From the NCBI GenBank assembly GCA_964016885.1, contig OZ024745.1:19158001-19222000 (forward strand): a stretch of DNA of 64,000 nt. Direction: 5' to 3'. Shown in pieces: positions 16,914 through 64,000 of this stretch. The notes beneath the pieces were generated by a model that worked only from the letters and a program-made list of their open reading frames with translations, had not been told where the DNA came from and ran no database searches. The position numbers were made by a program, and so were the translations under genes. Origin of the DNA: Eledone cirrhosa. Taxonomy: Eukaryota. How positions within the stretch are numbered: position 1 is the first letter of the stretch; each line of letters starts with the position of its first letter.

Positions 16914-16960
16914 GAATCATTATTGAACCCTCTTCGGATTTTAGTTTTCATATTTATTAT

Positions 16961-25645: not shown

Positions 25646-25787
25646 GTCTGATATGTTTGTTTATGTAATCGGAAATAAAGATGGGAAATACAAAGTCGAT
25701 GGCGCTGATAGTGCAGTAGCTAAACTAAACAGCGAGAAGGCAACAGATGAACCATCATTTAGTGGTATTTACATCCAGAAAATAAAG
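25646..25787 (+). CDS. Cadherin exon M (last visible; TM exon expected beyond the window)
   Basis: polypyrimidine tract plus caag| and |gtatgt; (W)SDMFVYVIGNKDGKYKVDGADSAVAKLNSEKATDEPSFSGIYIQKIK; phase 2 to 0. Confidence 0.85.
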
Positions 25788-32124: not shown

Positions 32125-33012
32125 ATCAACATTATTATATATATATCAACATTATTATATATATATCAACATTATTATACATATATCAACATTATTATAT
32201 ATATATATCAGCATTATTATATATATATCAGCATTATTATATATATATCAACATTATTATATATATATCAGCATTATTATATATATATATCAACATTATT
32301 ATATATATATCAACATTATTATATATATATCAACATTATTATATATATATCAACATTATTATATATATATCAACATTATTATATATATATCAACATTATT
32401 ATATATATATCAACATTATTATATATATATATCAACATTATTATATATATATCAACATTATTATATATATATATCAACATTATTATATATATATCAACAT
32501 TATTATATATATATCAACATTATTATATATATATATCAACATTATTATATATATATATCAACATTATTATATATATATCAACATTATTATATATATATAT
32601 CAACATTATTATATATATATATCAACATTATTATATATATATCAACATTATTATATATATATCAACATTATATATATATATCAACATTATTATATATATA
32701 TCAACATTATATATATATATCAACATTATTATATATATATCAACATTATATATATATATCAACATTATTATATATATATCAACATTAAGGTAGCATAGTG
32801 CGGGACTAAGAGATGGTAATATATTTTTGATGTTATAAGGAGGATGTTGTTAATGATGATGGTTATGATGATATTGTTGATCATGATGATGTTAATGTTG
32901 TTAATGATGATGACGATGATGATGTTGTTGATGTTGTTGATAATATAAGGATGATGATGATGATGATGATGATGATATAAGGATGTTGTTAATGATGATG
33001 AAAATGATGATA

Positions 33013-33200
33013 ATCATCATCATCATTGTTTAACATTCATTTTTCCATGCTCGCATGGGTTGGACGAATTATCCTGTTGTGTGCAATGACAGGTCAATGA
33101 CCTTGTCATGCTCATACAGAACTAATTTTGGTTTGGATTCTACAGCTGGATGCCCTTCCTAGTACGAATCTCATTTACAGTAAGTACTGGGTACTTTTTT
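33013..33200 (-). mobile_element. RTE 3' UTR terminus that leads directly into the satellite
   Basis: (CAT)n tail, ttttccatgctcgcatgggttggacg, ctacagctggatgcccttcct, as in the other 3' UTR copies. Confidence 0.85.
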
Positions 33201-36200
33201 GCCGTGACACAACCACTTTACAGTGTGGGCTGGGTCCTTTATTGCCATGACACCTAGACAACCACTTTACAGCATAGGCTGGGTCCTTTTTTGCCATGAC
33301 ACCTAGACAACCACTTTACAATGTGGGCTGGGTCCTTTTTTGCCATGACACCTAGACAACCACTTTACAGTGTGGGCTGGGTCCTTTTTGCCGTGAGACC
33401 TAGACAACCACTTTACAGTGTGGGCTTGGTCCTTTTTGCCGTGAGACCTAGACAACCACTTTACAGCATGGGCTGGGTCCTTTTTGCCGTGAGACCTAGA
33501 CAACCACTTTACAGTGTGGGCTGGGTCCTTTTTGCCGTGAGACCTAGACAACCACTTCACAGTGTGCGCTGGGTCCTTTTTGCCGTGACACCTAGACAAC
33601 CACTTTACAGTGTGGGCTGGGTCCTTTTTTGACATGACACCCAGACAACCACTTTACAGTGTGGGCTTGGTCCTTTTTGCCGTGAGACCTAGACAACCAC
33701 TTTACAGTGTGGGCTGGGTCCTTTTTTGCCGTGACACCTAGACAACCACTTTACAGTGTGGGCTGGGTCCTTTTTTGCCATGACACCTAGACAACCACTT
33801 TACAGTGTGGGCTGGGTCCTTTTTTGCCATGACACCTAGACAACAACTTTACAGCATGGGCTGGCCCTTTTGCCATGACACCTAGACAACCACTTTACAG
33901 CGTGGACTGGGTTGTTTTTTGCCATGACACTTAGATAACCACTTTACAGTGTGGGCTGGGTCCTTTTTGCCGTGAGACCTAGATAACCACTTTACAGCAT
34001 GGGCTTGGTCCTTTTTGCCGTGAGACCTAGACAACCACTTTACAGTGTGCGCTGGGTCCTTTTTGCCGTGAGACCTAGACAACCACTTTACAGTGTGCGC
34101 TGGGTCCTTTTTGCCGTGACACCTAGACAACCACTTTACAGTGTGCGCTGGGTTCTTTTTGCCGTGAGACCTGGACAACCACTTTACAGTGTGGGCTGGG
34201 TCCTTTTTTGCCATGACACCTAGACAACCACTTTACAGTGTGGGCTGGGTCCTTTTTTGCCATGACACCTAGACAACCACTTTACAGTGTGAGCTAGGTC
34301 CTTTTTGCCGTGAGACCGACACAATCACTTTACAGTGTGGGCTGGGTCCTTTTTTGCCATGGCACCTAGACAACCACTTTACAGTGTGGGCTGGGTCCTT
34401 TTTTGCTATGACACCTAGACAACAACTTTACAGCATGGGCTGGCCCTTTTTGCCATGACAACTAGACAACCACTTTACAGCATGGGCTGGGTCCTTTTTG
34501 CCATGACACCTAGACAACCACTTTACAGTGTGGGCTGGGTCCTTTTTTGCCATGAAACCTAGACAACCACTTTACAGTGTGGGCTGGGTACTTTTTTGCC
34601 ATGACACCTAGACAACCACTTTACGGTGTGAGCTGGGTCCTTTTTGCCGTGAGACCTAGACAACTACTTTACAGTGTGGGCAGGGCCCTTTTTTGCCATG
34701 ACACCTATACAACCACTTTACAGTGTGGGCTGGGTCCTTTTTTGCTATGACACCTAGACAACCACTTTGCAGCATGGGCTGGGTCCTTTTTTGCCATGAA
34801 ACCTATACAACCACTTTACAGTGTGGGCTGGGTCCTTTTTTGCTATGACACCTAGACAACCACTTTACAGTGTGGACTGGGTCCTTTTTTGCCATGACAC
34901 CTAGACACCCACTTTACTGTGTGGGCTAGGCCCTTTTTTGCGATGACACCTAGACAACCACTTTACAGTGTGGGCTGGGCTCTTTTTGCCATTACACCTA
35001 GGCAAACACTTTACAGTGTGGGCTGGGTCCTTTTTTGCCATGGCACCTAGACAACCACTTTACAGTGTGGGCTGGGTCCTTTTTTGCCATGACACCTAGA
35101 CAACCACTTTACAGTTGTGGGCTGGGCTCTTTTTGCCATTACAACTAGACAACCACTTTACAGCATGGGTTGGGTCCTTTTTTGCCATGACATCTATACA
35201 ACCACTTTACAGTGTCGGCTGGGCCCTTTTTGCCATGACACCAAGACAACCAATTTACAGTGTGGGCTGGGGCCTTTTTTGCCATGACACCTAGACAACC
35301 ACTTTACAGCATGGGCTGGGCCCTTTTTGCCATGACACCCAGACAACCACTTTACAGCATGGGCTGGGTCCTTTTTGCCATGACACCTACACAACCACTT
35401 TACAGTGTGGGCTGGGTCCTTTTTCGCCATGACACCTAGACAACCACTTTACAGCATGGGCTGGGCCCTTTTTGCCATGACACCTAGACAACCACTTTAC
35501 AGTGTGGGCTGGGCCCTTTTTGCCATGACACATAGACAACCACTTTACAGAATGGGCTGGGTACTTTTTGCCGTGACACCTAAACAACCACTTTATAGTG
35601 TGGGCTGGGTCCTTTTTGCCGTGACACCTAGACAACCACTTTACAGCATGGTCTGGGTCCTTTTTTGCCATGACACCTAGACAACCACTTTACAGTGTGG
35701 GCTGGGCCCTTTTTGCCATGACACCTAGACAACCACTTTACAGTGTGAGCTGGGTACTTTTTGCCATGACACCTAGACAACCACTTTACAGTGTGGGCTG
35801 GGCACTTTTTGCCATGACACCTAGACAACCACTTTACAGTGTGAGCTGGGTACTTTTTGCCATGACACCTAGACAACCACTTTACAGTGTGAGCTGGGTA
35901 CTTTTTGCCATGACACCTAGACAACCACTTTACAGTGTGAGCTGGGTACTTTTTGCCATGACACCTAGACAACCACTTTACAGTGTGGGCTGGGCCCTTT
36001 TTGCCATGACACCTAGACAACCACTTTACAGTGTGGGCTGGGTCCTTTTTTGCCATGACACCTAGACAACCACTTTACAGTGTGGGCTAGGTCCTTTTTG
36101 CCGTGAGACCGAGACAATCACTTTACAATGTGAGCTGGGTCCTTTTTTGCCATGACACCTAGACAACCATTTTACAGTGTGGGCTGGGTCCTTTTTTGCC

Positions 36201-39200
36201 ATGACACCTAGACAACAACTTTACAGCATGGGCTGGGCCCTTTTTGCCATGACAGCTAGAGAACCACTTTACAGTGTGGGCTGGGCCCTATTTGCCATGA
36301 CAGCTAGACAACCACTTTACAGTGTGGGCTGGGTCCTTTTTTGCCATGACACCTAGACAACCACTTTACAGTGTGGGCTGGGTCCTTTTTTGCCATGACA
36401 CCTAGACAACCACTTTACAGTGTGGGCTGGGCCCTTTTTTGCCATGACACCTATACAACCACTTTACAGTGTGGGCTGGGTCCTTTTATGCTATGACACC
36501 TAGACAACCACTTTGCAGCATGGGCTGGGTTCTTTTTTGCCATGAAACCTATACAACCACTTTACAGTGTGGGCTGGGTCCTTTTTTGCCATGACACCTA
36601 GACAACCACTTTACAGTGTGGTCTGGGTCCTTTTTTGCCATGACACCTAGACACCCACTTTACTGTGTGGGCTGGGCCCTTTTTTGCGATGACACCTAGA
36701 CAACCACTTTACAGTGTGGGCTGGGCTCTTTTTGCCATTACACCTAGACAACCACTTTACAGTGTGGGCTGGGTCCTTTTTTGCCATGACACCTAGACAA
36801 CCACTTTACAGTGTGGGCTGGGTCCTTTTTTGCCATGACACCTAGACAACCACTTTACAGCATGGGCTGGGTCCTTTTTTGCCATGACACCTACACAACC
36901 ACTTTACAGCATGGGCTGGGTCCTTTTTTGCCATGACACCTATACAACCACTTTACAGTGTCGGCTGGGCCCTTTTTGCCATGACACCTAGACAACCAAT
37001 TTACAGTGTGGGCTGGGTCCTTTTTTGCCATGACACCTAGACAACCACTTTACAGCATGGGCTGGGCCCTTTTTGCCATGACACCCAGACAACCACTTTA
37101 CAGCATGGGCTGGGTCCTTTTTGCCATGACACCTACACAACCACTTTACAGTGTGGGCTGGGGCCATGACACCTAGACAACCACTTTACAGCATGGGCTG
37201 GGCCCTTTTTGCCATGACACCTAGACAACCACTTTACAGTGTGGGCTGGGCCCTTTTTGCCATGACACATAGACAACCACTTTACAGAATGGGCTGGGTA
37301 ATTTTTGCCGTGACACCTAAACAACCACTTTATAGTGTGGGCTGGGTCCTTTTTGCCGTGACACCTAGACAACCACTTTACAGCATGGGCTGGGTCCTTT
37401 TTTGCCATGACACCTAGACAACCACTTTACAGTGTGGGCTGGGCCCTTTTTGCCATGACACCTAGACAACCACTTTACAGTGTGAGCTGGGTACTTTTTG
37501 CCATGACACCTAGACAACCACTTTACAGTGTGGGCTGGGCACTTTTTGCCATGACACCTAGACAACCACTTTACAGTGTGAGCTGGGTACTTTTTGCCAT
37601 GACACCTAGACAACCACTTTACAGTGTGAGCTGGGTACTTTTTGCCATGACACCTAGACAACCACTTTACAGTGTGAGCTGGGTACTTTTTGCCATGACA
37701 CCTACACAACCACTTTACAGTGTGGGCTGGGCCCTTTTTGCCATGACACCTAGACAACCACTTTACAGTGTGGGCTGGGTCCTTTTTTGCCATGACACCT
37801 AGACAACCACTTTACAGTGTGGGCTAGGTCCTTTTTGCCGTGAGACCGAGACAATCACTTTACAATGTGAGCTGGGTCCTTTTTTGCCATGACACCTAGA
37901 CAACCATTTTACAGTGTGGGCTGGGTCCTTTTTTGCCATGACACCTAGACAACAACTTTACAGCATGGGCTGGGCGCTTTTTGCCATGACAGCTAGAGAA
38001 CCACTTTACAGTGTGGGCTGGGCCCTATTAGCCATGACACCTAGACAACCACTTTACAGTGTGGGCTGGGTCCTTTTTTGCCATGACACCTAGACAACCA
38101 CTTTACAGTGTGGGCTGGGTCCTTTTTTGCCATGACACCTAGACAACCACTTTACAGCATGGGCTGGGCCCTTTTTGCCATGACACCTAGACAACCACTT
38201 TACAGCATGGGCTAGGTCCTATTTGCCATAACACCTAGACAACCCCTTTACAGTGTGGGCTGGGTCCTTTTTCGCCTTGACACCTAGACAACCACTTTAC
38301 AGCATGGGCTGGGCACTTTTTGCCATGACACCTACACAACCACTTTACAGCATGGGCTGGGCACTTTTTGCCATGACACCTAGACAACCACTTTACAGCA
38401 TGGGCTGGGCCCTTTTTGCCATGACACCTAGACAACCACTTCACAGTGTGGGCTGGGCCCTTTTTGCCATGACACCTAGACAACCAATTTACAGTGTGGG
38501 CTGGGGCCTTTTTTGCCATGACACCTAGACAACCACTTTACAGCATGGGCTGGGCCCTTTTTGCCATGACACCTAGACAACCACTTTACAGTGTCGGCTG
38601 GGCCCTTTTTGCCATGACACCTAGACAACCAATTTACAGTGTGGGCTGGGGCCTTTTTTGCCATGACACCTAGACAACCACTTTACAGCATGGGCTGGGC
38701 CCTTTTTGCCATGACACCTAGACAACCACTTTACAGTGTCGGCTGGGCCCTTTTTGCCATGACACCTAGACAACCACTTTACAGCATGGGCTGGGTCCTT
38801 TTTGCCATGACACCTACACAACCACTTTACAGTGTGGGCTGGGGCCTTTTTTGCCATGACACCTAAACAACCACTTTACAGCATGGGCTGGGCCCTTTTT
38901 GCCATGACACCTAGACAACCACTTTACAGTGTGGGCTGGACCCATATTGACATGACACCTAGTCAACCACTTTACAGTGTGGGCTGGGTCCTTTTTGCCA
39001 TGACACCTACACAACCACTTTACAGTGTGGGCTGGGGCCTTTTTTGCCATGTCACCTAGACAACCACTTTACAGCATGGGCTGGGCCCTTTTTGCCATGA
39101 CACCTAGTCAACCACTTTACAGCGTGGACTGGGTTGTTTTTTGCCATGACACCTACACAACCACTTTACAGTGTGGGCTGGGCCCTTTTTGCCATGACAC

Positions 39201-42200
39201 CTAGACAACCACTTTACAGCATGGGCTGGGTCCTTTTTTGCCATGACACCTACACAACCACTTTACAGCATGGGCTGGGTCCTTTTTTGCCATGACACCT
39301 ATACAACCACTTTACAGTGTCGGCTGGGCCCTTTTTGCCATGACACCTAGACAACCAATTTACAGTGTGGGCTGGGTCCTTTTTTGCCATGACACCTAGA
39401 CAACCACTTTACAGCATGGGCTGGGCCCTTTTTGCCATGACACCCAGACAACCACTTTACAGCATGGGCTGGGTCCTTTTTGCCATGACACCTACACAAC
39501 CACTTTACAGTGTGGGCTGGGTCCTTTTTCGCCTTGACACCTAGACAACCACTTTACAGCATGGGCTGGGCACTTTTTACCATGACACCTACACAACCAC
39601 TTTACAGCATGGGCTGGGCACTTTTTGCCATGACACCTAGACAACCACTTTACAGCATGGGCTGGGCCCTTTTTGCCATGACACCTAGACAACCACTTCA
39701 CAGTGTGGGCTGGGCCCTTTTTGCCATGACACCTAGACAACCAATTTACAGTGTGGGCTGGGGCCTTTTTTGCCATGACACCTAGACAACCACTTTACAG
39801 CATGGGCTGGGCCCTTTTTGCCATGACACCTAGACAACCACTTTACAGTGTCGGCTGGGCCCTTTTTGCCATGACACCTAGACAACCAATTTACAGTGTG
39901 GGCTGGGGCCTTTTTTGCCATGACACCTAGACAACCACTTTACAGCATGGGCTGGGCCCTTTTTGCCATGACACCTAGACAACCACTTTCCAGTGTCGGC
40001 TGGGCCCTTTTTGCCATGACACCTAGACAACCACTTTACAGCATGGGCTGGGTCCTTTTTGCCATGACACCTACATAACCACTTTACAGTGTGGGCTGGG
40101 GCCTTTTTGGCCATGACACCTAAACAACCACTTTACAGCATGGGCTGGGCCCTTTTTGCCATGACACCTAGACAACCACTTTACAGTGTGGGCTGGACCC
40201 ATATTGACATGACACCTAGTCAACCACTTTACAGTGTGGGCTGGGTCCTTTTTGCCATGACACCTACACAACCACTTTACAGTGTGGGCTGGGGCCTTTT
40301 TTGCCATGTCACCTAGACAACCACTTTACAGCATGGGCTGGGCCCTTTTTGCCATGACACCTAGTCAACCACTTTACAGCGTGGACTGGGTTGTTTTTTG
40401 CCATGACACCTACACAACCACTTTACAGTGTGGGCTGGGCCCTTTTTGCCATGACACCTAGACAAACACTTTACAGCATGGGCTGGGCCCTTTTTGCCAT
40501 GACACCCAGACAACCACTTTACAGCATGGGCTGGGTCCTTTTTGCCATGACACCTAGAAAACCACTTTACAGTGTGGGCTGGGTACTTTTTGCCATGACA
40601 CCTAGACAACCGATTTACAGCATGGGCTGGGTCCTTTTTTGCCATGACACCTAGACAACCACTTTACAGTGTGGGCTGGGCCCTTTTTGCCATGACACCT
40701 AGACAACCACTTTACAGTGTGGGCTGGGTCCTTTTTCGCCATGACACCTAGACAACCACTTTACAGCATGGGCTGGGCCCTTTTTGCCATGACACCTAGA
40801 CAACCACTTTACAGTGTGGGCTGGGCCCTTTTTGCCATGACACATAGACAACCACTTTACAGAATGGGCTGGGTACTTTTTGCCGTGACACCTAAACAAC
40901 CACTTTATAGTGTGGGCTGGGTCCTTTTTGCCGTGACACCTAGACAACCACTTTACAGCATGGTCTGGGTCCTTTTTTGCCATGACACCTAGACAACCAC
41001 TTTACAGTGTGGGCTGGGCCCTTTTTGCCATGACACCTAGACAACCACTTTACAGTGTGAGCTGGGTACTTTTTGCCATGACACCTAGACAACCACTTTA
41101 CAGTGTGGGCTGGGCACTTTTTGCCATGACACCTAGACAACCACTTTACAGTGTGAGCTGGGTACTTTTTGCCATGACACCTAGACAACCACTTTACAGT
41201 GTGAGCTGGGTACTTTTTGCCATGACACCTAGACAACCACTTTACAGTGTGAGCTGGGTACTTTTTGCCATGACACCTAGACAACCACTTTACAGTGTGG
41301 GCTGGGCCCTTTTTGCCATGACACCTAGACAACCACTTTACAGTGTGGGCTGGGTCCTTTTTTGCCATGACACCTAGACAACCACTTTACAGTGTGGGCT
41401 AGGTCCTTTTTGCCGTGAGACCGAGACAATCACTTTACAATGTGAGCTGGGTCCTTTTTTGCCATGACACCTAGACAACCATTTTACAGTGTGGGCTGGG
41501 TCCTTTTTTGCCATGACACCTAGACAACAACTTTACAGCATGGGCTGGGCCCTTTTTGCCATGACAGCTAGAGAACCACTTTACAGTGTGGGCTGGGCCC
41601 TATTTGCCATGACAGCTAGACAACCACTTTACAGTGTGGGCTGGGTCCTTTTTTGCCATGACACCTAGACAACCACTTTACAGCATGGGCTGGGTCCTTT
41701 TTTGCCATGACACCTAGACAACCACTTTACAGTGTGGGCTGGGCCCTTTTTTGCCATGACACCTATACAACCACTTTACAGTGTGGGCTGGGTCCTTTTA
41801 TGCTATGACACCTAGACAACCACTTTGCAGCATGGGCTGGGTTCTTTTTTGCCATGAAACCTATACAACCACTTTACAGTGTGGGCTGGGTCCTTTTTTG
41901 CCATGACACCTAGACAACCACTTTACAGTGTGGTCTGGGTCCTTTTTTGCCATGACACCTAGACACCCACTTTACTGTGTGGGCTGGGCCCTTTTTTGCG
42001 ATGACACCTAGACAACCACTTTACAGTGTGGGCTGGGCTCTTTTTGCCATTACACCTAGACAACCACTTTACAGTGTGGGCTGGGTCCTTTTTTGCCATG
42101 ACACCTAGACAACCACTTTACAGTGTGGGCTGGGTCCTTTTTTGCCATGACACCTAGACAACCACTTTACAGCATGGGCTGGGTCCTTTTTTGCCATGAC

Positions 42201-45200
42201 ACCTACACAACCACTTTACAGCATGGGCTGGGTCCTTTTTTGCCATGACACCTATACAACCACTTTACAGTGTCGGCTGGGCCCTTTTTGCCATGACACC
42301 TAGACAACCAATTTACAGTGTGGGCTGGGTCCTTTTTTGCCATGACACCTAGACAACCACTTTACAGCATGGGCTGGGCCCTTTTTGCCATGACACCCAG
42401 ACAACCACTTTACAGCATGGGCTGGGTCCTTTTTGCCATGACACCTACACAACCACTTTACAGTGTGGGCTGGGGCCATGACACCTAGACAACCACTTTA
42501 CAGCATGGGCTGGGCCCTTTTTGCCATGACACCTAGACAACCACTTTACAGTGTGGGCTGGGCCCTTTTTGCCATGACACATAGACAACCACTTTACAGA
42601 ATGGGCTGGGTAATTTTTGCCGTGACACCTAAACAACCACTTTATAGTGTGGGCTGGGTCCTTTTTGCCGTGACACCTAGACAACCACTTTACAGCATGG
42701 GCTGGGTCCTTTTTTGCCATGACACCTAGACAACCACTTTACAGTGTGGGCTGGGCCCTTTTTGCCATGACACCTAGACAACCACTTTACAGTGTGAGCT
42801 GGGTACTTTTTGCCATGACACCTAGACAACCACTTTACAGTGTGGGCTGGGCACTTTTTGCCATGACACCTAGACAACCACTTTACAGTGTGAGCTGGGT
42901 ACTTTTTGCCATGACACCTAGACAACCACTTTACAGTGTGAGCTGGGTACTTTTTGCCATGACACCTAGACAACCACTTTACAGTGTGAGCTGGGTACTT
43001 TTTGCCATGACACCTACACAACCACTTTACAGTGTGGGCTGGGCCCTTTTTGCCATGACACCTAGACAACCACTTTACAGTGTGGGCTGGGTCCTTTTTT
43101 GCCATGACACCTAGACAACCACTTTACAGTGTGGGCTAGGTCCTTTTTGCCGTGAGACCGAGACAATCACTTTACAATGTGAGCTGGGTCCTTTTTTGCC
43201 ATGACACCTAGACAACCATTTTACAGTGTGGGCTGGGTCCTTTTTTGCCATGACACCTAGACAACAACTTTACAGCATGGGCTGGGCGCTTTTTGCCATG
43301 ACAGCTAGAGAACCACTTTACAGTGTGGGCTGGGCCCTATTAGCCATGACACCTAGACAACCACTTTACAGTGTGGGCTGGGTCCTTTTTTGCCATGACA
43401 CCTAGACAACCACTTTACAGTGTGGGCTGGGTCCTTTTTTGCCATGACACCTAGACAACCACTTTACAGCATGGGCTGGGCCCTTTTTGCCATGACACCT
43501 AGACAACCACTTTACAGCATGGGCTAGGTCCTATTTGCCATAACACCTAGACAACCCCTTTACAGTGTGGGCTGGGTCCTTTTTCGCCTTGACACCTAGA
43601 CAACCACTTTACAGCATGGGCTGGGCACTTTTTGCCATGACACCTACACAACCACTTTACAGCATGGGCTGGGCACTTTTTGCCATGACACCTAGACAAC
43701 CACTTTACAGCATGGGCTGGGCCCTTTTTGCCATGACACCTAGACAACCACTTCACAGTGTGGGCTGGGCCCTTTTTGCCATGACACCTAGACAACCAAT
43801 TTACAGTGTGGGCTGGGGCCTTTTTTGCCATGACACCTAGACAACCACTTTACAGCATGGGCTGGGCCCTTTTTGCCATGACACCTAGACAACCACTTTA
43901 CAGTGTCGGCTGGGCCCTTTTTGCCATGACACCTAGACAACCAATTTACAGTGTGGGCTGGGGCCTTTTTTGCCATGACACCTAGACAACCACTTTACAG
44001 CATGGGCTGGGCCCTTTTTGCCATGACACCTAGACAACCACTTTACAGTGTCGGCTGGGCCCTTTTTGCCATGACACCTAGACAACCACTTTACAGCATG
44101 GGCTGGGTCCTTTTTGCCATGACACCTACACAACCACTTTACAGTGTGGGCTGGGGCCTTTTTTGCCATGACACCTAAACAACCACTTTACAGCATGGGC
44201 TGGGCCCTTTTTGCCATGACACCTAGACAACCACTTTACAGTGTGGGCTGGACCCATATTGACATGACACCTAGTCAACCACTTTACAGTGTGGGCTGGG
44301 TCCTTTTTGCCATGACACCTACACAACCACTTTACAGTGTGGGCTGGGGCCTTTTTTGCCATGTCACCTAGACAACCACTTTACAGCATGGGCTGGGCCC
44401 TTTTTGCCATGACACCTAGTCAACCACTTTACAGCGTGGACTGGGTTGTTTTTTGCCATGACACCTACACAACCACTTTACAGTGTGGGCTGGGCCCTTT
44501 TTGCCATGACACCTAGACAACCACTTTACAGCATGGGCTGGGTCCTTTTTTGCCATGACACCTACACAACTACTTTACAGCATGGGCTGGGTCCTTTTTT
44601 GCCATGACACCTATACAACCACTTTACAGTGTCGGCTGGGCCCTTTTTGCCATGACACCTAGACAACCAATTTACAGTGTGGGCTGGGTCCTTTTTTGCC
44701 ATGACACCTAGACAACCACTTTACAGCATGGGCTGGGCCCTTTTTGCCATGACACCCAGACAACCACTTTACAGCATGGGCTGGGTCCTTTTTGCCATGA
44801 CACCTACACAACCACTTTACAGTGTGGGCTGGGTCCTTTTTCGCCTTGACACCTAGACAACCACTTTACAGCATGGGCTGGGCACTTTTTACCATGACAC
44901 CTACACAACCACTTTACAGCATGGGCTGGGCACTTTTTGCCATGACACCTAGACAACCACTTTACAGCATGGGCTGGGCCATTTTTGCCATGACACCTAG
45001 ACAACCACTTCACAGTGTGGGCTGGGCCCTTTTTGCCATGACACCTAGACAACCAATTTACAGTGTGGGCTGGGGCCTTTTTTGCCATGACACCTAGACA
45101 ACCACTTTACAGCATGGGCTGGGCCCTTTTTGCCATGACACCTAGACAACCACTTTACAGTGTCGGCTGGGCCCTTTTTGCCATGACACCTAGACAACCA

Positions 45201-51200: not shown

Positions 51201-54200
51201 GGGCTGGGGCCTTTTTTGCCATGACACCTAGACAACCACTTTACAGCATGGGCTGGGCCCTTTTTGCCATGACACCTAGACAACCACTTTACAGTGTCGG
51301 CTGGGCCCTTTTTGCCATGACACCTAGACAACCACTTTACAGCATGGGCTGGGACCTTTTTGCCATGACACCTACACAACCACTTTACAGTGTGGGCTGG
51401 GGCCTTTTTTGCCATGACACCTAAACAACCACTTTACAGCATGGGCTGGGCCCTTTTTGCCATGACACCTAGACAACCACTTTACAGTGTGGGCTGGACC
51501 CATATTGACATGACACCTAGTCAACCACTTTACAGTGTGGGCTGGGTCCTTTTTGCCATGACACCTACACAACCACTTTACAGTGTGGGCTGGGGCCTTT
51601 TTTGCCATGTCACCTAGACAACCACTTTACAGCATGGGCTGGGCCCTTTTTGCCATGACACCTAGTCAACCACTTTACAGCGTGGACTGGGTTGTTTTTT
51701 GCCATGACACCTACACAACCACTTTACAGTGTGGGCTGGGCCCTTTTTGCCATGACACCTAGACAACCACTTTACAGCATGGGCTGGGTCCTTTTTTGCC
51801 ATGACACCTACACAACCACTTTACAGCATGGGCTGGGTCCTTTTTTGCCATGACACCTATACAACCACTTTACAGTGTCGGCTGGGCCCTTTTTGCCATG
51901 ACACCTAGACAACCAATTTACAGTGTGGGCTGGGTCCTTTTTTGCCATGACACCTAGACAACCACTTTACAGCATGGGCTGGGCCCTTTTTGCCATGACA
52001 CCCAGACAACCACTTTACAGCATGGGCTGGGTCCTTTTTGCCATGACACCTACACAACCACTTTACAGTGTGGGCTGGGTCCTTTTTCGCCTTGACACCT
52101 AGACAACCACTTTACAGCATGGGCTGGGCACTTTTTACCATGACACCTACACAACCACTTTACAGCATGGGCTGGGCACTTTTTGCCATGACACCTAGAC
52201 AACCACTTTACAGCATGGGCTGGGCCCTTTTTGCCATGACACCTAGACAACCACTTCACAGTGTGGGCTGGGCCCTTTTTGCCATGACACCTAGACAACC
52301 AATTTACAGTGTGGGCTGGGGCCTTTTTTGCCATGACACCTAGACAACCACTTTACAGCATGGGCTGGGCCCTTTTTGCCATGACACCTAGACAACCACT
52401 TTACAGTGTCGGCTGGGCCCTTTTTGCCATGACACCTAGACAACCAATTTACAGTGTGGGCTGGGGCCTTTTTTGCCATGACACCTAGACAACCACTTTA
52501 CAGCATGGGCTGGGCCCTTTTTGCCATGACACCTAGACAACCACTTTCCAGTGTCGGCTGGGCCCTTTTTGCCATGACACCTAGACAACCACTTTACAGC
52601 ATGGGCTGGGTCCTTTTTGCCATGACACCTACATAACCACTTTACAGTGTGGGCTGGGGCCTTTTTGGCCATGACACCTAAACAACCACTTTACAGCATG
52701 GGCTGGGCCCTTTTTGCCATGACACCTAGACAACCACTTTACAGTGTGGGCTGGACCCATATTGACATGACACCTAGTCAACCACTTTACAGTGTGGGCT
52801 GGGTCCTTTTTGCCATGACACCTACACAACCACTTTACAGTGTGGGCTGGGGCCTTTTTTGCCATGTCACCTAGACAACCACTTTACAGCATGGGCTGGG
52901 CCCTTTTTGCCATGACACCTAGTCAACCACTTTACAGCGTGGACTGGGTTGTTTTTTGCCATGACACCTACACAACCACTTTACAGTGTGGGCTGGGCCC
53001 TTTTTGCCATGACACCTAGACAACCACTTTACAGCATGGGCTGGGCCCTTTTTGCCATGACACCCAGACAACCACTTTACAGCATGGGCTGGGTCCTTTT
53101 TGCCATGACACCTAGAAAACCACTTTACAGTGTGGGCTGGGTACTTTTTGCCATGACACCTAGACAACCGATTTACAGCATGGGCTGGGTCCTTTTTTGC
53201 CATGACACCTAGACAACCACTTTACAGTGTGGGCTGGGCCCTTTTTGCCATGACACCTAGACAACCACTTTACAGTGTGGGCTGGGTACTTTTTGCCATG
53301 ACACCTAGACAACCACTTTACAGTGTGGGCTGGGTCCTTTTTTGCCATGACACCTAGACAACCACTTTACAGTGTGGGCTAGGTCCTTTTTGCCGTGAGA
53401 CCGAGACAATCACTTTACAGTGTGGGCTGGGTCCTTTTTTGCCATGACACCTAGACAACCATTTTACAGTGTAGGCTGGGTCCTTTTTTGCCATGACACC
53501 TAGACAAACACTTTAAAGTGTGGGCTGGGTCCTTTTTTGCCATGACACCTAGACAACCACTTTACAGTGTGGGCTGGGTACTTTTTGCCATGACACCTAG
53601 ACAACCACTTTACAGTGTGGGCTGGGTACTTTTTTACCATGACACCTAGACAACCACTTTACCGCATGGGCTGGGTCCTTTTTGCCATGACACCCAGACA
53701 ACCACTTTACAGTGTGGGCTGGGTACTTTTTGCCGTGACACCTAGACAACCACTTTACAGTGTGGGCTGGGTCCTTTTTTGCCATGACACCTAGACAACC
53801 ACTTTACAGTGTGGGCTGGGTCTTTTTTTGCCATGACACCCAGACAACCACTTTAGAGCATGGGCTGGGTCCTTTTTGCCATGACACCTAGACTACCACT
53901 TTACAATGTGGGCTGGGTCCTTTTTCGCCTTGACACCTAGACAACCACTTTACAGCATAGGCTGGGCACTTTTTGCCGTGACACCTAGACAACCACTTTA
54001 CAGCATGGGCTGGGTCCTTTGTGCCATGACACCTAGACAACCACTTTATAGTGTGGGCCTGGCCCTTTTTGCCATGACACCTAGACAACCACTTTACAGT
54101 GTGGGCTGGGTCCTTTTTTGCCATGAAACCTAGACAACCACTTTTCAGTGTGGGCTGGGTCCTTTTTTTCCATGACACCTAGACAACCACTTTACCACAT

Positions 54201-57200
54201 GGGCTGGTCCCTTTTTGCCATGACACCCAGACAACCACTTTAGAGCATGGGCTGGGTCCTTTTTGCCATGACACCTAGACTACCACTTTACAATGTGGGC
54301 TGGGTCCTTTTTCGCCTTGACACCTAGACAACCACTTTACAGCATAGGCTGGGCACTTTTTGCCATGACACCTAGACAACCACTTTACAGCATGAGCTGG
54401 GTCCTTTTTGCCATGACACCTACACAACCACTTTACAGAGTGGGCTGGGTCCTTTTTTGCCATGACACCTAGACAACCACTTTACAGCATGGGCTGGGCC
54501 CTTTTTGCCATGACACCTAGACAACCACTTTACAGTGTGGGCTAGGTCCTTTTTGCCGTGAGACCAAGACAATCAATTTACAATGTGAGCTGGGTCCTTT
54601 TTTGCCATGACACCTAGACAACCATTTTACAGTGTGGGCTGGGTCCTTTTTTGTCATGACACCTAGACAACAACTTTACAGCATGGGCTCGGCTCTTTTT
54701 ACCATGACAGCTAGAGAACCACTTTACAGTGTGGGCTGGGCCCTATTAGCCATGACACCTAGACAACCACTTTACAGTGTGGGCTGGGTCCTTTTTTTGC
54801 CATGACACCTAGACAACCACTTTACAGTGTGGGCTGGGTCCTTTTTTGCCATGACACCTAGACAACCACTTTACAGCATGGGCTGGGTCCTTTTTTGCCA
54901 TGACACCTATACAACCACTTTACAGTGTGGGGTGGGTCCTTTTTTGCCATAACACCTAGACAACCACTTTACAGTGTGGGCTGGGTCCTTTTTTGCCATG
55001 ACACCTAGACAACCACTTTACAGCATGGGCTGGGCCCTTTTTGCCATGACACCTAGACAACCACTTTACAGCATGGGCTGGGTCCTTTTTGCCATGACAC
55101 CTACACAACCACTTTACAGTGTGGGCTGGGTCCTTTTTCGCCTTGACACCTAGACAACCACTTTACAGCATGGGCTGGGCACTTTTTGCCATGACACCTA
55201 GACAACCACTTTACAGCATGGGCTGGGTCCTTTTTGCCATGACACCTACACAACCACTTTACAGTGTGGGCTGGGGCCTTTTTTGCCATGACACCTAGAC
55301 AACCACTTTACAGCATGGGCTGGGCCCTTTTTGCCATGACACCCAGACAACCACTTTACAGTGTGGGCTGGGCCCTTTTTGCCATGACACCTAGACAACC
55401 ACTTTACAGTGTCGGCTGGGCCCTTTTTGCCATGACACCTAGACAACCAATTTACAGTGTGGGCTGGGGCCTTTTTTGCCATGACACCTAGACAACCACT
55501 TTACAGCATGGGCTGGGCCCTTTTTGCCATGACACCTATACAACCACTTTACAGTGTCGGCTGGGCCCTTTTTGCCATGACACCTAGACAACCACTTTAC
55601 AGCATGGGCTGGGTCCTTTTTGCCATGACACCTACACAACCACTTTACAGTGTGGGCTGGGGCCTTTTTTGCCATGACACCTAGACAACCACTTTACAGC
55701 ATGGGCTGGGCCCTTTTTGCCATGACACCTAGACAACCACTTTACAGTGTGGGCTGGACCCATATTGACATGACACCTAGACAACCACTTTACAGTGTGG
55801 GCTGGGTCCTTTTTTGCCATGACACCTAGACAACCACTTTACAGCATGGGCTGGGCCCTTTTTGCCATGACACCTAGACAACCACTTTACAGTGTGGGCT
55901 GGGCCCTTTTTGCCATGACACATAGACAACCACTTTACAGAATGGGCTGGGTAATTTTTGCCGTGACACCTAGACAACCACTTTACAGCATGGGCTGGGC
56001 CCTTTTTGCCATGACACCTAGACAACCACTTTACAGTGTGGGCTGGACCCATATTGACATGACACCTAGACAACCACTTTACAGTGTGGGCTGGGTACTT
56101 TTTTCCATGACACCTAGACAACCACTTTAGAGTGTGGGCTGGGCCCTTTTTGCCATGACACCTAGACAACCGCTTTACAGTGTGAGCTGGGTACTTTTTG
56201 CCATGACACCTAGACAACCACTTTACAGTGTGGGCTGGGCCCTTTTTGCCATGACACCTAGACAACCACTTTACAGTGTGAGCTGGGTACTTTTTGCCAT
56301 GACACCTAGACAACCACTTTACAGTGTGAGCTGGGTACTTTTTGCCATGACACCTAGACAACCACTTTACAGTGTGGGCTGGGCCCTTTTTGCCATGACA
56401 CCTAGACAACCACTTTACAGTGTGGGCTGGGTCCTTTTTTGCCATGACACCTAGACAACCACTTTACAGTGTGGGCTAGGTCCTTTTTGCCGTGAGACCG
56501 AGACAATCACTTTACAATGTGAGCTGGGTCCTTTTTTGCCATGACACCTAGACAACCATTTTACAGTGTGGGCTGTGTCCTTTTTTGCCATGACACCTAG
56601 ACAACAACTTTACAGCATGGGCTGGGCCCTTTTTGCCATGACAGCTAGAGAACCACTTTACAGTGTGGGCTGGGCCCTATTAGCCATGACACCTAGACAA
56701 CCACTTTACAGTGTGGGCTGGGTCCTTTTTTGCCATGACACCTAGACAACCACTTTACAGTGTGGGCTGGGTCCTTTTTTGCCATGACACCTAGACAACC
56801 ACTTTACAGCATGGGCTGGGCCCTTTTTGCCATGACACCTAGACAACCACTTTACAGCATGGGCTGGGTCCTTTTTGCCATGACACCTAGACAACCCCTT
56901 TAAAGTGTGGGCTGGGTCCTTTTTCGCCTTGACACCTAGACAACCACTTTACAGCATGGGCTGGGCACTTTTTGCCATGACACCTACACAACCACTTTAC
57001 AGCATGGGCTGGGCACTTTTTGCCATGACACCTAGACAACCACTTTACAGCATGGGCTGGGCCCTTTTTGCCATGACACCTAGACAACCACTTCACAGTG
57101 TGGGCTGGGCCCTTTTTGGCATGACACCTAGACAACCAATTTACAGTGTGGGCTGGGGCCTTTTTTGCCATGACACCTAGACAATCACTTTACAGCATGG

Positions 57201-60200
57201 GCTGGGCCCTTTTTGCCATGACACCTAGACAACCACTTTACAGTGTCGGCTGGGCCCTTTTTGCCATGACACCTAGACAACCAATTTACAGTGTGGGCTG
57301 GGGCCTTTTTTGCCATGACACCTAGACAACCACTTTACAGCATGGGCTGGGCCCTTTTTGCCATGACACCTAGACAACCACTTTACAGTGTCGGCTGGGC
57401 CCTTTTTGCCATGACACCTAGACAACCACTTTACAGCATGGGCTGGGTCCTTTTTGCCATGACACCTACACAACCACTTTACAGTGTGGGCTGGGGCCTT
57501 TTTTGCCATGACACCTAGACAACCACTTTACAGTGTGGGCTGGACCCATATTGACATGACACCTAGTCAACCACTTTACAGTGTGGACTGGGTCCTTTTT
57601 GCCATGACACCTACACAACCACTTTACAGTGTGGGCTGGGGCCTTTTTTGCCATGTCACCTAGACAACCACTTTACAGCATGGGCTGGGCTCTTTTTGCC
57701 ATGACACCTAGTCAACCACTTTACAGCGTGGACTGGGTTGTTTTTTGCCATGACACCTACACAACCACTTTACAGTGTGGGCTGGGCCCTTTTTGCCATG
57801 ACACCTAGACAACCACTTTACAGCATGGGCTGGGCCCTTTTTGCCATGACACCGAGACAACCACTTTACAGCATGGGCTGGGTCCTTTTTGCCATGACAC
57901 CTTGAAAACCACTTTACAGTGTGGGCTGGGTACTTTTTGCTGTGACACCTAGACAACCACTTTACAGCATGGGCTGGGTCCTTTTTTGCCATGGCACCTA
58001 GACAACCACTTTACAGTGTGGGCTGGGCCCTTTTTGCCATGGCACCTAGACAACCATTTTACAGTGTGGGCTGGGTACTTTTTGCCATGACACCTAGACA
58101 ACCACTTTACAGTGTGGGCTGGGTCCTTTTTTGCCATGACACCTAGACAACCACTTTACAGTGTGGGCTAGGTCCTTTTTGCCGTGAGACCGAGACAATC
58201 ACTTTACAGTGTGGGCTGGGTCCTTTTTTGCCATGACACCTAGACAACCATTTTACAGTGTGGGCTGGGTCCTTTTTTGCCATGACACCTAGACAAACAC
58301 TTTACAGTGTGGGCTGGGTCCTTTTTTGCCATGACACCTAGACAACCACTTTACAGTGTGGGCTGGGTCCTTTTTGTCATGACACCTAGACAACCACTTT
58401 ACAGTGTGGGCTGGGTACTTTTTTACCATGACACCTAGACAACCACTTTACCGCATGGGTTGGGCCCTTTTTGCCATGACACCCAGACAACCACTTTACA
58501 GTGTGGGCTGGGTACTTTTTGCCGTGACACCTAGACAACCACTTTACAGTGTGGGCATGGGTCCTTTTTTGCCATGACACCTAGACAACCACTTTACAGT
58601 GTGGGCTGGGTCTTTTTTTGCCATGACACCTAGATAACCACTTTACAGTGTGGGCTGGGTCCTTTTTTGCCATGAAACCTAGACAACCACTTTACAGTGT
58701 GGGCTGGGTCCTTTTTTTCCATGACACCTAGACAAAAACTTTACCGCATGGGCTGGGCCCTTTTTGCCATGACACCCAGACAACCATTTTAGATCATGGG
58801 CTGGGTCCTTTTTGCCATGACACCTAGACTACCACTTTACAATGTGGGCTGGGTCCTTTTTCGCCTTGACACCTAGACAACCATTTTACAGCATAGGCTG
58901 GGCACTTTTTGCCGTGACACCTAGACAACCACTTTACAGCATGGGCTGGGTCCTTTTTGCCATGACACCTAGACAACCACTTTACACTGTGGGCCTGGCC
59001 CTTTTTGCCATGACACCTAGACAACCACTTTACAGTATGGGCTGGGTACTTTTTACCATGACACCTAGACAACCACTTTACAGTGTGGGCTAGGTCCTTT
59101 TTGCCGTGAGACCGAGACAATCACTTTACAGTGTGGGCTGGGTACTTTTTTGCCATGACACCTAGACAACCACTTTACAGCGTGGGCTGGGTTCTTTTTT
59201 GCCATGACACCTAGACAACAACTTTACAGCATGGGCTGGGCCCTTTTTGCCATGACACCTAGACAACCACTTTACAGCATGGGCTGGGTCCTTTTTGCCA
59301 TGACACCTAGTCAACCACTTTACAGTGTGGGCTGGGTCCTTTTTTGCCATGACACCTAGACAACAACTTTACAGCATGGGCTGGGCCCTTTTTGCCATGA
59401 CACCTAGACAACCACTTTACAGTGTGGGCTGGGTACTTTTTTGCCATGATACCTAGACAACCACTTTACAGTGTGAGCTGGGTCCTTTTTGCCGTGAGAC
59501 TTAGACAACTACTTTACAGTGTGGGCTGGGTACTTTTTTGCAATGACACCTAGACACCCACTTTACCGTGTGGGCTGGGCCCTTTTTGCCATGACACCTA
59601 GACAACCACTTTACAGCATGGGCTGGGCCCTTTTTGCCATGACACCCAGACAACCACTTTACAGCATGGGCTGGATACTTTTTGCCATGACACCTAGAAA
59701 ACGACTTTACAGTGTGGGCTGGGTACTTTTTGCCATGACACCTAGACAACCACTTTACAGCATGGGCTGGGTCCTTTTTTGCCATGACACCTAGACAACC
59801 ACTTTACAGTGTGGGCTGGGCCCTTTTTGCCATGACACCTAGTCAACCACTATACAGTGTGGGCTGGGTACTTTTTGCCATGACACCTAGACAACCACTT
59901 TACAGTGTGGGCTGGGTCCTTTTTTGCCATGACACCTAGACAAACACTTTACAGTGTGGGCTGGATCCTTTTTTGCCATGACACATAGACAACCACTTTA
60001 CAGCATGGGCTGTTTACTTTTTGCCTTGACACCTAGACAACCACTTTATAGTGTGGGCTGGGTCCTTTTTGCCGTGACACCTAGACAACCACTTTACAGT
60101 GTGGGCTGGGTCCTTTTTGCCGTGACACCTAGACAACCACTTTACAGTGTGGGCTGGGTCTTTTTTTGCCATGACACCTAGACAACCACTTTACAGTGTG

Positions 60201-63200
60201 GGCTGGGTCCTTTTTTGCCATGAAACCTAGACAACCACTTTTCAGTGTGGGCTGGGTCCTTTTTTTCCATGACACCTAGACAACCACTTTACCACATGGG
60301 CTGGGCCCTTTTTGCCATGACACCCAGACAACCACTTTAGAGCATGGGCTGGGTCCTTTTTGCCATGACACCTAGACTACCACTTTACAATGTGGGCTGG
60401 GTCGTTTTTCGCCTTGACACCTAGACAACCACTTTACAGCATAGGCTGGGCACTTTTTGCCATGACACCTAGACAACCACTTTACAGCATGGGCTGGGTC
60501 CTTTTTGCCATGACACCTACACAACCACTTTACAGTGTGGGCTGGGTGCTGTTTTGCCATGACACCTAGACAACCACTTTACAGTGTGGGCTAGGTCCTT
60601 TTTGCCGTGAGACCGAGACAATCACTTTACAGTGTGGGCTGGGTCCTTTTTTGCCATGACACCTAGACAACCACTTTACAGTGTGGGCTGGGTACTTTTT
60701 GTCATGACACCTAGACAACCACTTTACAGTGTGGGCTGGGTACTTTTTTACCATGACACCTAGACAACCACTTTACCGCATGGGCTGGGCCCTTTTTGCC
60801 ATGACACCCAGACAACCACTTTACAGTGTGGGCTGGGTACTTTTTACCATGACACCTAGACAACCACTTTACAGTGTGGGCTAGGTCCCTTTTCCCGTGA
60901 GACCGAGACAATCACTTTACAGTGTGGGCTGGGTACTTTTTTGCCATGACACCTAGACAACCACTTTACAGTGTGGGCTGGGTTCTTTTTTGCCATGACA
61001 CCTAGACAACCACTTTACAGCATGGGCTGGGTCCTTTTTGCCATGACACCTAGTCAACCACTTTACAGTGTGGGCTGGGTCCTTTTTTGCCATGACACCT
61101 AGACACCCACTTTACCATGTGGGCTGGGCCCTTTTTGCCATGACACCTAGACAACCACTTTACAGCATGGGCTGGGCCCTTTTTGCCATGACACCCAGAC
61201 AACCACTTTACAGCATGGGCTGGATCCTTTTTGCCATGACACCTAAAAACGACTTTACAGTGTGGGCTGGGTACTTTTTGCCATGACACCTAGACAACCA
61301 CTTTACAGCATGGGCTGGGTCCTTTTTTGCCATGACACCTAGACAACCACTTTACAGTGTGGGCTGGGCCCTTTTTGCCATGACACCTAGACAACCACTA
61401 TACAGTGTGGGCTGGGTATTTTTGCCATGACACCTAGACAACCACTTTACAGTGTGGGCTGGGTCCTTTTTTGCCATGACACCTAGACAAACACTTTACA
61501 GTGTGGGCTGGATCCTTTTTTGCCATGACACATAGACAACCACTTTACAGCATGGGCTGGGTACTTTTTGCCATGACACCTAGACAACCACTTTACAGTG
61601 TGAGCTGGGTCTTTTTTGCCGTGAGACTTAGACAACTACTTTACAGTGTGGGCTGGGTACTTTTTTGCAATGACACCTAGACACCCACTTTACCGTGTGG
61701 GCTGGGCCCTTTTTGCCATGACACCTAGACAACCACTTTACAGCATGGGCTGGGCCCTTTTTGCCATGACGCCCAGACAACCACTTTACAGCATGGGCTG
61801 GATCCTTTTTGCCATGACACCTAGAAAACGACTTTACAGTGTGGGCTGGGTACTTTTTGCCATGACACCTAGGCAACCACTTTACAGCATGGGCTGGGTC
61901 CTTTTTTGACATGACACCTAGACAACCACTTTACAGTGTGGGCTGGGCCCTTTTTGCCATGACACCTAGACAACCACTATACAGTGTGGGCTGGGCATTT
62001 TTGCCATGACACCTAGACAACCACTTTACAGTGTGGGCTGGGTCCTTTTTTGCCATGACACCTAGACAAACACTTTACAGTGTGGGCTGGATCCTTTTTT
62101 GCCATGACACATAGACAACCACTTTACAGCATGGGCTGGGTACTTTTTGCCATGACACCTAGAGAACCACTTTACAGTGTGGGCTGGGTCCTTTTTGCCG
62201 TGACACCTAGACAACCACTTTACAGTGTGGGCTGGGTCCTTTTTGCCGTGACACCTAGACAACCACTTTACAGTGTGGGCTGGGTCTTTTTTTGCCATGA
62301 CACCTAGACAACCACTTTACAGTGTGGGCTGGGTCCTTTTTTGCCATGAAACCTAGACAACCACTTTTCAGTGTGGGCTGGGTCCTTTTTTTCCATGACA
62401 CCTAGACAACCACTTTACCACATGGGCTGGGCCCTTTTTGCCATGACACCCAGACAACCACTTTAGAGCATGGGCTGGGTCCTTTTTGCCATGACACCTA
62501 GACTACCACTTTACAATGTGGGCTGGGTCCTTTTTCGCCTTGACACCTAGACAACCACTTTACAGCATAGGCTGGGCACTTTTTGCCGTGACACCTAGAC
62601 AACCACTTTACAGCATTGGCTGGGTCCTTTTTGCCATGACACCTACACAACCACTTTACAGTGTGGGCTGGGTGCTTTTTTGCCATGACACCTAGACAAC
62701 CACTTTACAGTGTGGGCTAGGTCCTTTTTGCCGTGAGACCGAGACAATCACTTTACAGTGTGGGCTGGGTCCTTTTTTGCCATGACACCTAGACAACCAC
62801 TTTACAGTGTGGGCTGGGTACGTTTTGTCATGACACCTAGACAACCACTTTACAGTGTGGGCTGGGTACTTTTTTACCATGACACCTAGACAACCACATT
62901 ACCGCATGGGCTGGGCCCTTTTTGCCATGACACCCAGACAACCACTTTACAGTGTGGGCTGGGTACTTTTTGCCGTGACACCTAGACAACCACTTTACAG
63001 TGTGGGCTGGGTCCTTTTTTGCCATGACACCTAGACAACCACTTTACAGTGTGGGCTGGGTCTTTTTTTGCCATGACACCTAGATAACCACTTTACAGTG
63101 TGGGCTGGGTCCTTTTTTGCCATGAAACCTAGTAACCACTTTACAGTGTGGGCTGGGTCCTTTTTTTCCATGACACCTAGACAACCACTTTACCGCATGG

Positions 63201-64000
63201 GCTGGGCCCTTTTTGCCATGACACCCAGACAACCACTTTAGAGCATGGGCTGGGTCCTTTTTGCCATGACACCTAGACAACCACTTTACAGTGTGGGCCT
63301 GGCCCTTTTTGCCATGACACCTAGACAACCACTTTACAGTATGGGCTGGGTACTTTTTACCATGACACCTAGACAACCACTTTACAGTGTGGGCTAGGTC
63401 CTTTTTGCCGTGAGACCGAGACAATCACTTTACAGTGTGGGCTGGGTACTTTTTTGCCATGACACCTAGACAACCACTTTACAGTGTGGGCTGGGTTCTT
63501 TTTTGACATGACACCTAGACAACAACTTTACAGCATGGGCTGGGCCCTTTTTGCCATGACACCTAGACAACCACTTTACAGTGTGGGCTAGCTACTTTTT
63601 TGCCATGACACCTAGACAACCACTTTACAGTGTGAGCTGGGTCCTTTTTGCCATGAGACTTAGACAACTACTTTACAGTGTGGGCTGGGTACTTTTTTGC
63701 AATGACACCTAGACACCCACTTTACCATGTGGGCTGGGCCCTTTTTGCCATGACACCTAGACAACCACTTTACAGCATGGGCTGGGCCCTTTTTGCCATG
63801 ACACCCAGACAACCACTTTACAGCATGGGCTGGATCCTTTTTGCCATGACACCTAGAAAACGACTTTACAGTGTGGGCTGGGTACTTTTTGCCATGACAC
63901 CTAGACAACCACTTTACAGCATGGGCTGGGTCCTTTTTTGCCATGACACCTAGACAACCACTTTACAGTGTGGGCTGGGCCCTTTTTGCCATGACACCTA
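33200..64000. repeat. 48/49-bp satellite array, roughly 640 monomers, open at the window end
   Basis: Consensus gccatgacacctagacaaccactttacagtgtgggctgggtccttttt(t); copy number estimated as length divided by about 48.3. Confidence 0.98.

What the first reader, a model, noticed from the sequence alone, without database searches (positions are those of the whole stretch)
33013..64000. >30 kb satellite grown out of an RTE LINE 3' UTR, with the junction preserved
Seen: the array starts right after an RTE 3' terminus ((CAT)n...ggatgcccttcct), at the position where ordinary copies carry 2-3 units of accac(a)tttacagtgtgg..ctggg..tttt.ccgtgacacctac (17985-18085, 18668-18765; reverse complement at 16715-16780 downstream of the RT ORF). 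Inference: the monomer is this UTR sub-repeat amplified several hundred-fold in place. TE-derived satellites are known in general; whether this family is described I cannot tell.
Basis: partly seen in the sequence, partly recalled or inferred. Interest (0 to 1): 0.8.

Follow-up and report, generated by a model that had tools for sequence, protein, structure and literature searches.

The report
Retrotransposon tail ballooned into 68-kb array
A 48-base repeat that occurs two or three times in the tail of a common jumping gene is present about 1,400 times (68 kb) in one copy that still has both original ends and sits inside an intron of a cell-adhesion (cadherin) gene, most likely because it was duplicated on the spot after insertion, which gives a clear snapshot of how satellite-like DNA can be born.

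Summary
Confirmed and extended. The array starts directly after the 3' tail of an RTE-type LINE (33,015-33,167, minus strand) and runs 37 kb past the window: about 1,406 units of 48/49 bp, 68 kb. Its far end rejoins the upstream part of the same 3' UTR and stops at the position of the ORF's stop codon, so both junctions survive and no ORF is attached. Copies picked by their ORF carry 2-3 units (35 of 38). Other genomic arrays of 5-509 units mostly also begin at the tail (33 of 39), and each long array has its own homogenised variant; a 35-mer typical of this array occurs only here (32 of 32). Nested 1.3-7.2 kb duplications (98.6-99.7% identical) point to stepwise growth after insertion. The copy fills 90% of a 75.5-kb intron of an octopod cadherin gene, just before the transmembrane exon. 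Short-read contigs bridge the left junction and support many hundreds of units; the far junction was not bridged. Satellites from transposon 3' UTRs are known (Ogre elements; SINE-derived satellites). I found no report for an RTE LINE. A real and unusually complete example of a known process.

The parts
33015..33026 (-). (ATG)n 3' tail of the array-bearing RTE copy, read as (CAT)4 on +
   Evidence: sequence; intact copies end in (GAT)n 284 bp after the stop
33027..33167 (-). conserved 3'-terminal UTR block, with GGATGCCCTTCCT at 33,148-33,160
   Evidence: 84-89% identical to five of six ordinary copies compared, 73% to the sixth, which has deletions; 4,621 first-look candidates genome-wide; read contigs cover 33,033-33,154 and 33,132-33,233 with no difference
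33170..33212 (-). terminal-type first unit (43 bp, CTCATTTACAGT form), the unit type that ordinary copies carry next to the tail
33213..64000 (-). tandem array of 48/49-bp UTR units. It continues beyond the window to G000:C5:19,259,129 (about 1,406 units, 68 kb), then about 100 bp of upstream 3' UTR ending at the stop-codon position C5:19,259,254-256, then (GAT)n and the cadherin transmembrane exon at C5:19,259,342
32853..33011 (+). degenerate (GAT)n microsatellite on the left flank; a similar tract lies on the right flank, so this is likely the insertion site
   Evidence: a target-site duplication cannot be resolved in low-complexity DNA
25647..25787 (+). last extracellular exon of the host cadherin gene; its donor opens the 75,554-bp intron that holds the array
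   Evidence: tblastn of P0001 residues 1115-1162, 73% identity; residues 1161-1203 map beyond the array; phase-0 join reading KIK|VAESS
15332..16915 (+). ordinary broken, 5'-truncated RTE copy: RT, PHD finger, stop at about 16,687, 3' UTR with two units and a (GAT)n tail
17833..18090 (-). ordinary UTR-only copy with two units
18525..18780 (-). ordinary UTR-only copy with two units
1135..1668 (-). older copy with 7-8 diverged units after the tail, an intermediate stage

Best explanation
One 5'-truncated copy of an RTE-type LINE lies antisense in a (GAT)n tract of a cadherin intron, and the 48-bp sub-repeat of its 3' UTR now stands at about 1,400 units between the two preserved ends of that UTR, most likely through stepwise DNA-level duplication after insertion. 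Shown: the tail-units-upstream-UTR anatomy, 2-3 units in ORF-bearing copies, a private monomer variant, nested kilobase block duplications, the intronic position, and the same pattern at dozens of other loci. Inferred: insertion by target-primed reverse transcription as a short copy; an early increase to several units by slippage; then unequal exchange or gene conversion between sisters or homologues that duplicated blocks of 26-150 units and spread locally arisen mutations through the array. No function is implied: the array is most likely tolerated neutral growth.
For: Far junction 74-82% identical to the upstream UTR of six ordinary copies and ending at the stop position. Of 40 ORF-selected copies fetched, 38 were scorable and 35 of those have 2-3 unit anchors. 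Tail present at 33 of 39 arrays from loci fetched with array-only queries. Private variant: a 35-mer matches 32 times genome-wide, all here; a 24-mer matches 691 times, 645 here; no exact monomer is shared with 2,334 monomers of other arrays. Across 31 arrays of 14 or more units, mean edit distance is 3.7 within and 7.2 between, with 27 distinct majority monomers. Block duplications of 1.3-7.2 kb at 98.6-99.7% identity sit on monomers that differ by 10% on average, and rare variants are shared mainly between neighbouring blocks. Read contigs bridge the left junction, and 15 array pieces show 5.5-8.2 depth units per assembled copy against 7.1-13.6 for single-copy pieces.
Against: Only 7 of the 39 array-query loci score for the upstream UTR at the far end (12 of all 46), so most arrays stop inside the repeat and some multi-unit seeds may have formed before or during insertion. 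Three of 39 arrays show no tail at all. No target-site duplication is resolvable. Read depth per assembled copy is lower than the highest single-copy value, so the exact length may differ between haplotypes or from the assembly. The exchange mechanism itself was not observed.
Confidence: 0.87

Rival explanations
1. A pre-existing satellite was captured into the LINE 3' UTR, or this locus was seeded or converted from a master array elsewhere.
For: Three of 39 arrays lack a tail; 46 of 691 matches to a 24-mer typical of this array lie at other loci, among them a run on C4.
Against: 33 of 39 arrays start at the tail. Each long array has its own variant. Two common family variants total only 1,301 and 607 exact matches in the assembly, so no large master block of those variants is assembled. 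The terminal-type first unit and the upstream UTR are in register at both ends.
Confidence: 0.04
2. The long array was made at the RNA stage, by repeated template slippage of the reverse transcriptase, and inserted at nearly its present size.
For: Most other arrays end inside the repeat block, as a truncation in a multi-unit template would.
Against: 68 kb is about 20 times the length of the whole ORF. Block duplications differ in identity (98.6-99.7%) and overlie 10% monomer divergence, which implies several rounds over time. It may explain seeds of 5-15 units.
Confidence: 0.03
3. The array is real but its length is inflated or its ends are mis-joined by the assembler.
For: The 7.2- and 5.3-kb blocks are 99.7% identical; read depth per assembled copy is about 50-100% of single-copy depth.
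Against: No N in 264 kb; 408 distinct monomers; duplicate blocks differ at 16-19 sites; read depth tracks assembled multiplicity from 11 to 506 copies; cadherin exons continue in order and in phase across the array.
Confidence: 0.06

Closest known systems
Satellites from 3' UTR tandem repeats of Ogre LTR retrotransposons (Lathyrus, PMC7004042; PisTR-A of pea as cited there and in PMC9659126)
   Same: Short tandem repeats in a retrotransposon 3' UTR are dispersed by the element and occasionally expand, with intermediate lengths in one genome.
   Different: The parent here is a non-LTR RTE-type LINE in an animal. The long array is intronic and resolved at a single locus with both ends, whereas the Ogre-derived arrays expand mainly in primary constrictions.
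SINE-derived satellites of squamates (sSat; PMC10702118)
   Same: Tandem repeats of part of a non-LTR element, with a longer terminal unit at one end or, in minor variants, both; up to 1,000 units per locus.
   Different: The parent is an autonomous LINE with an existing UTR sub-repeat, not a tRNA-derived SINE. Long arrays here differ between loci, whereas long sSat loci are described as homogeneous within and between loci.
LINE-derived satellites listed in the review PMC9659126 (cetacean common satellite from the L1 3' end; chicken HinfI/SCR1 from CR1; HeT-A-derived 18HT)
   Same: A LINE 3' region is the source of tandem DNA.
   Different: In the passages seen, those monomers resemble portions of the element; here an internal 48-bp sub-repeat grew inside one copy. 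The word RTE does not occur in that review's main text.
RTE elements that spread microsatellites (PMC2887409) and octopus RTE-2_OV (PMC9115989)
   Same: Single ORF with endonuclease and RT, a simple-repeat 3' end, and frequent 3' partial copies.
   Different: Those reports concern microsatellite tails, not a 48-bp unit or multi-kilobase arrays. RTE-2_OV is described with a 1,109-aa ORF and UTRs of about 600 nt, against an open frame of about 1,040 aa and a 284-bp 3' UTR here; identity with it was not established.

Membership tests
RTE-clade non-LTR retrotransposon | single long ORF with an apurinic-type endonuclease and RT | tested here: met
   open frames of 1,040-1,048 aa in 3 of 3 long copies fetched; Exo_endo_phos, RVT_1 and PHD; feature as in the PMC2887409 abstract
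RTE-clade non-LTR retrotransposon | short 3' UTR ending in simple repeats; frequent 5' truncation | tested here: met
   284-bp UTR and (GAT)n tail; truncated copies
RTE-clade non-LTR retrotransposon | RT phylogeny groups with named RTE elements | not tested
   the 120 listed homologues carry no clade names; the clade label rests on architecture and recalled motifs
RTE-clade non-LTR retrotransposon | target-site duplication around the array-bearing copy | tested here: inconclusive
   both flanks are degenerate (GAT)n; a 15-mer is shared but does not abut the ends
Satellite DNA (definition in PMC10702118) | long head-to-tail array | tested here: met
   about 1,406 units, 68 kb
Satellite DNA (definition in PMC10702118) | association with centromeric or telomeric heterochromatin | not testable with these tools
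   no chromatin data; the array lies in a gene intron 19 Mb into a 135-Mb contig
Ogre-type 3' UTR-derived satellites | hypervariable tandem repeats in the 3' UTR with occasional expansion | tested here: met
   from 2-3 units to 1,406
Ogre-type 3' UTR-derived satellites | parent is a Ty3/gypsy LTR element | tested here: not met
   the parent has endonuclease-RT architecture and a simple-repeat tail; it works alike but is not a member
SINE-derived satellites (sSat) | terminal units that retain the parent element's ends | tested here: met
   both ends retained
SINE-derived satellites (sSat) | parent is a tRNA-derived SINE | tested here: not met
   the 5' end of the copy is the LINE's stop-codon position and the UTR is joined to RT ORFs in other copies
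SINE-derived satellites (sSat) | long arrays homogeneous between loci | tested here: not met
   27 distinct majority monomers among 31 arrays

The most novel reading that the evidence does not exclude
This LINE has sown many thousands of near-identical minisatellite seeds across an octopod genome, and each grows independently at a rate set by local recombination. Long arrays favour small chromosomes (4 of 28 on the four largest contigs, against 26 of 39 ordinary tail hits). The 68-kb array would be a length-polymorphic, still-growing element that alters splicing or transcription at the transmembrane exon of a cadherin. The family would then be a natural, replicated experiment on where and how fast satellites are born.
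Probability: 0.25. Interest if true: 0.75.

Novelty: new variant of a known kind. Interest (0 to 1): 0.5.

Why it matters
The origin of a satellite is usually inferred from partial similarity after the flanks are lost. Here the parent element is still present with intact ORFs, every stage from 2 to about 1,400 units exists in one genome, and the largest array found keeps both junctions at a mappable single-copy site in a gene. This makes expansion rate, mechanism and dependence on chromosomal position directly measurable. It also shows one way to inflate a roughly 1-kb intron to 75 kb in a large cephalopod genome.

Tried and rejected
Far junction in reads: run X1 has no cover at L014:7150-7171 and the three RAD runs do not cover the unique part, so this is inconclusive. 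No RNA holder was listed, so expression and splicing are untested. Hairpin-driven instability: unit dimers fold no better than shuffles (z +0.8 to +1.5). No Rfam family at gathering score in 15,000-36,000. A first homologue search with the 40-aa exon found nothing; a longer exon found P0001. My first array census mis-scored several tails because the anchor matched inside the tail; it was redone and only the redone counts are used. Earlier scan findings: none by words, sequence or place. One supplementary file of PMC9115989 was searched for the element name and two motifs with no hit; seven other readable files were not searched and two were unreadable, so identity with RTE-2_OV is open. Dfam and Repbase were not available. 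An ORF beyond the array was looked for and is absent.

Full report
Location and observation. The window is G000:C5:19,158,001-19,222,000 of a 3.0-Gb assembly. Tandem Repeats Finder reports a period-48 array from 33,209 to the window end, 637 copies, 89% matches. Directly before it the sequence reads (CAT)4 at 33,015, a 140-bp block with GGATGCCCTTCCT at 33,148, and a first unit at 33,170.

The parent element. The window copy at 15,332-16,915 has an RT (RVT_1, E 3.6e-21) and a PHD finger. A search with that RT gave 102,648 first-look candidates, of which 150 were scored. Three of three long copies fetched have one open frame of 1,040-1,048 aa; the one scanned has Exo_endo_phos, RVT_1 and PHD domains. 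The frame ends in TGA, followed by a 284-bp UTR and (GAT)n. The repeat lies after the stop, so it is a true 3' UTR sub-repeat. Of 40 ORF-selected copies fetched, 2 lacked my ORF-end marker; of the other 38, 20 had two anchors, 15 had three, 1 had one and 2 had four (both with insertions in the stretch). This sample favours young copies. The label RTE rests on this architecture (as in the abstract of PMC2887409) and on recalled motifs; no tree with named references was made, because the listed homologues carry no clade names.

The far end. I fetched the next 200 kb; it holds no N. The array continues to C5:19,259,129: 1,406 anchors, 408 distinct monomers, almost all 48 or 49 bp. It then passes into about 100 bp that align at 74-82% to the upstream UTR of six ordinary copies, the same copies whose tails match the left end at 84-89% (five) and 73% (one). 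The copy stops one base beyond the position of the stop codon and is followed by (GAT)n. So the whole 68.2-kb object is one 3' UTR with its internal repeat multiplied; no ORF is attached. Both flanks are degenerate (GAT)n and a target-site duplication cannot be resolved.

Host gene. Cadherin-like exons lie on the + strand throughout the left half of the window. One exon found P0001, a 1,546-aa cadherin-domain protein named from Octopus bimaculoides, at 76% identity, which marks the genome as octopod (inference). tblastn maps its residues 462-1162 in order to 300-25,790, and residues 1161-1203 (transmembrane) just beyond the array, with further cytoplasmic hits downstream. The donor at 25,787 and the acceptor about 85 bp past the element join in phase across a 75,554-bp intron; the 12 other introns measured are about 0.2-5.7 kb. 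Splicing itself is untested.

Family-wide pattern. Two array-only DNA searches (38 of 1,211 and 39 of 408 candidates scored) gave loci that I fetched. With all stored loci, 46 arrays of five or more units were scored: 40 have the tail and 12 have both ends. Leaving out 7 rows from the window or from tail-query loci, 33 of 39 have the tail and 7 of 39 the upstream UTR. Of the six misses, one is the distal part of an array split by a different LINE, two show a degenerate tail motif by eye, and three have none. Other long arrays hold 509, 455, 21+255 and 148 units. This is not a census, and longer arrays may exist.

Independent, local growth. Among 31 arrays of 14 or more units, mean edit distance is 3.7 within and 7.2 between arrays, with 27 distinct majority monomers; none of this array's monomers recurs exactly among 2,334 from other arrays. 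Whole-genome exact counts agree: a 35-mer occurs 32 times, all here; a 24-mer 691 times, 645 here. Two common family variants total 1,301 and 607 matches. Inside the array, monomers differ by 10% on average with no short higher-order period, yet blocks of 1.3-7.2 kb are duplicated at 98.6-99.7% identity, and rare variants are shared mostly between neighbouring blocks. I infer repeated unequal exchange or conversion over a long time, continuing recently. Unit dimers have no unusual secondary structure.

Is it an assembly artefact? Contigs of run X1 cover 33,033-33,154 and 33,132-33,233 with no difference, bridging tail and first units. For 15 array pieces from X1-X3, depth divided by assembled multiplicity (11 to 506) is 5.5-8.2, against 7.1-10.2 at the junction and 13.6 at the transmembrane exon in X1. 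The tool warns that depth is not copy number, and X1-X3 are one sample that may be the assembly's source, so this supports many hundreds of units but not the exact length or presence in other individuals. The far junction was not bridged (inconclusive).

Position of long arrays. Four of 28 arrays of 14 or more units lie on the four largest contigs (54% of the assembly), against 26 of 39 tail hits and 113 of 150 RT hits (Fisher p 2e-5 and 1e-9, comparison rows counted by hand). The sampling of candidates is unknown, subfamily and age are not matched, and searches show further arrays on C1-C4, so this is a lead only.

Comparison with print. Satellites from retrotransposon 3' UTR repeats are established for Ogre elements (PMC7004042: abstract and Discussion read). 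SINE-derived satellites with terminal units at one or both ends and up to 1,000 units are described in squamates (PMC10702118: abstract, Background, Discussion). A review lists L1-, CR1- and HeT-A-derived satellites and has no occurrence of RTE (PMC9659126: passages and part of a table). Octopus RTE elements are described without such arrays in what I saw (PMC9115989: passages, one supplement searched; PMC13282606: first third of the text). PMC2887409 was seen as abstract only; Macas 2009 only as cited. Eight searches listed no paper on an RTE 3' UTR-derived array or on this family; the library lacks most subscription papers, and Repbase and Dfam could not be checked.

Verdict. It works like Ogre-derived and SINE-derived satellites but is a member of neither. 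It is a new variant of a known process, valuable for its completeness rather than for a new mechanism. Interest 0.5.

Noticed in passing
window 26,495-32,787: A second, unrelated AT-rich array (about 20-bp unit, 304 copies) in the same intron. It carries three copies of an RTE tail (about 28,280, 30,640, 31,785) that are over 99% identical to each other and about 95% identical to the inverted copy at 17,833-18,090, plus two SINE-like pieces (27,817, 28,840) that resemble 17,130-17,310. Two independent expansions in one intron suggest a locally unstable region.
   Followed up: partly
window 25,761-25,889: A 64-bp tandem duplication includes the splice donor of the exon before the giant intron, giving a second potential GT donor.
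   Followed up: no
G000:C28:100,544,000-100,547,250 (L086): A different LINE of about 3.2 kb is inserted inside a unit array and splits it into 21 and 255 units; it could date that expansion.
   Followed up: partly
G000:C2:389,752,467-389,777,047 (L080-L082): A second giant array, about 509 units, with both the tail and the upstream UTR plus ORF end preserved.
   Followed up: partly
L121:674-3820, L122, L123: The LINE carries a PHD finger just after the RT in a single ORF; many unnamed homologues at 40-55% identity share this layout.
   Followed up: partly
L004, L005, L008, L010, L065, L070 and the far end of the array: A subfamily has an extra block of about 60 bp in the 3' UTR that looks like an old duplication of the ORF end; the array-bearing copy belongs to it.
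   Followed up: partly
G000:C4:91,567,844-91,573,627; C2:413,310,792-413,316,202: Further multi-kilobase arrays appear in pattern hits and were not fetched.
   Followed up: no
window 20,813-21,510 and 25,134-25,585: Unrelated intronic minisatellites of 21 bp (33 copies) and 15 bp (30 copies) in the same gene.
   Followed up: no
window 24,530-24,900 (minus strand): Sequence that looks by eye like a decayed mariner-type transposase; not tested.
   Followed up: no
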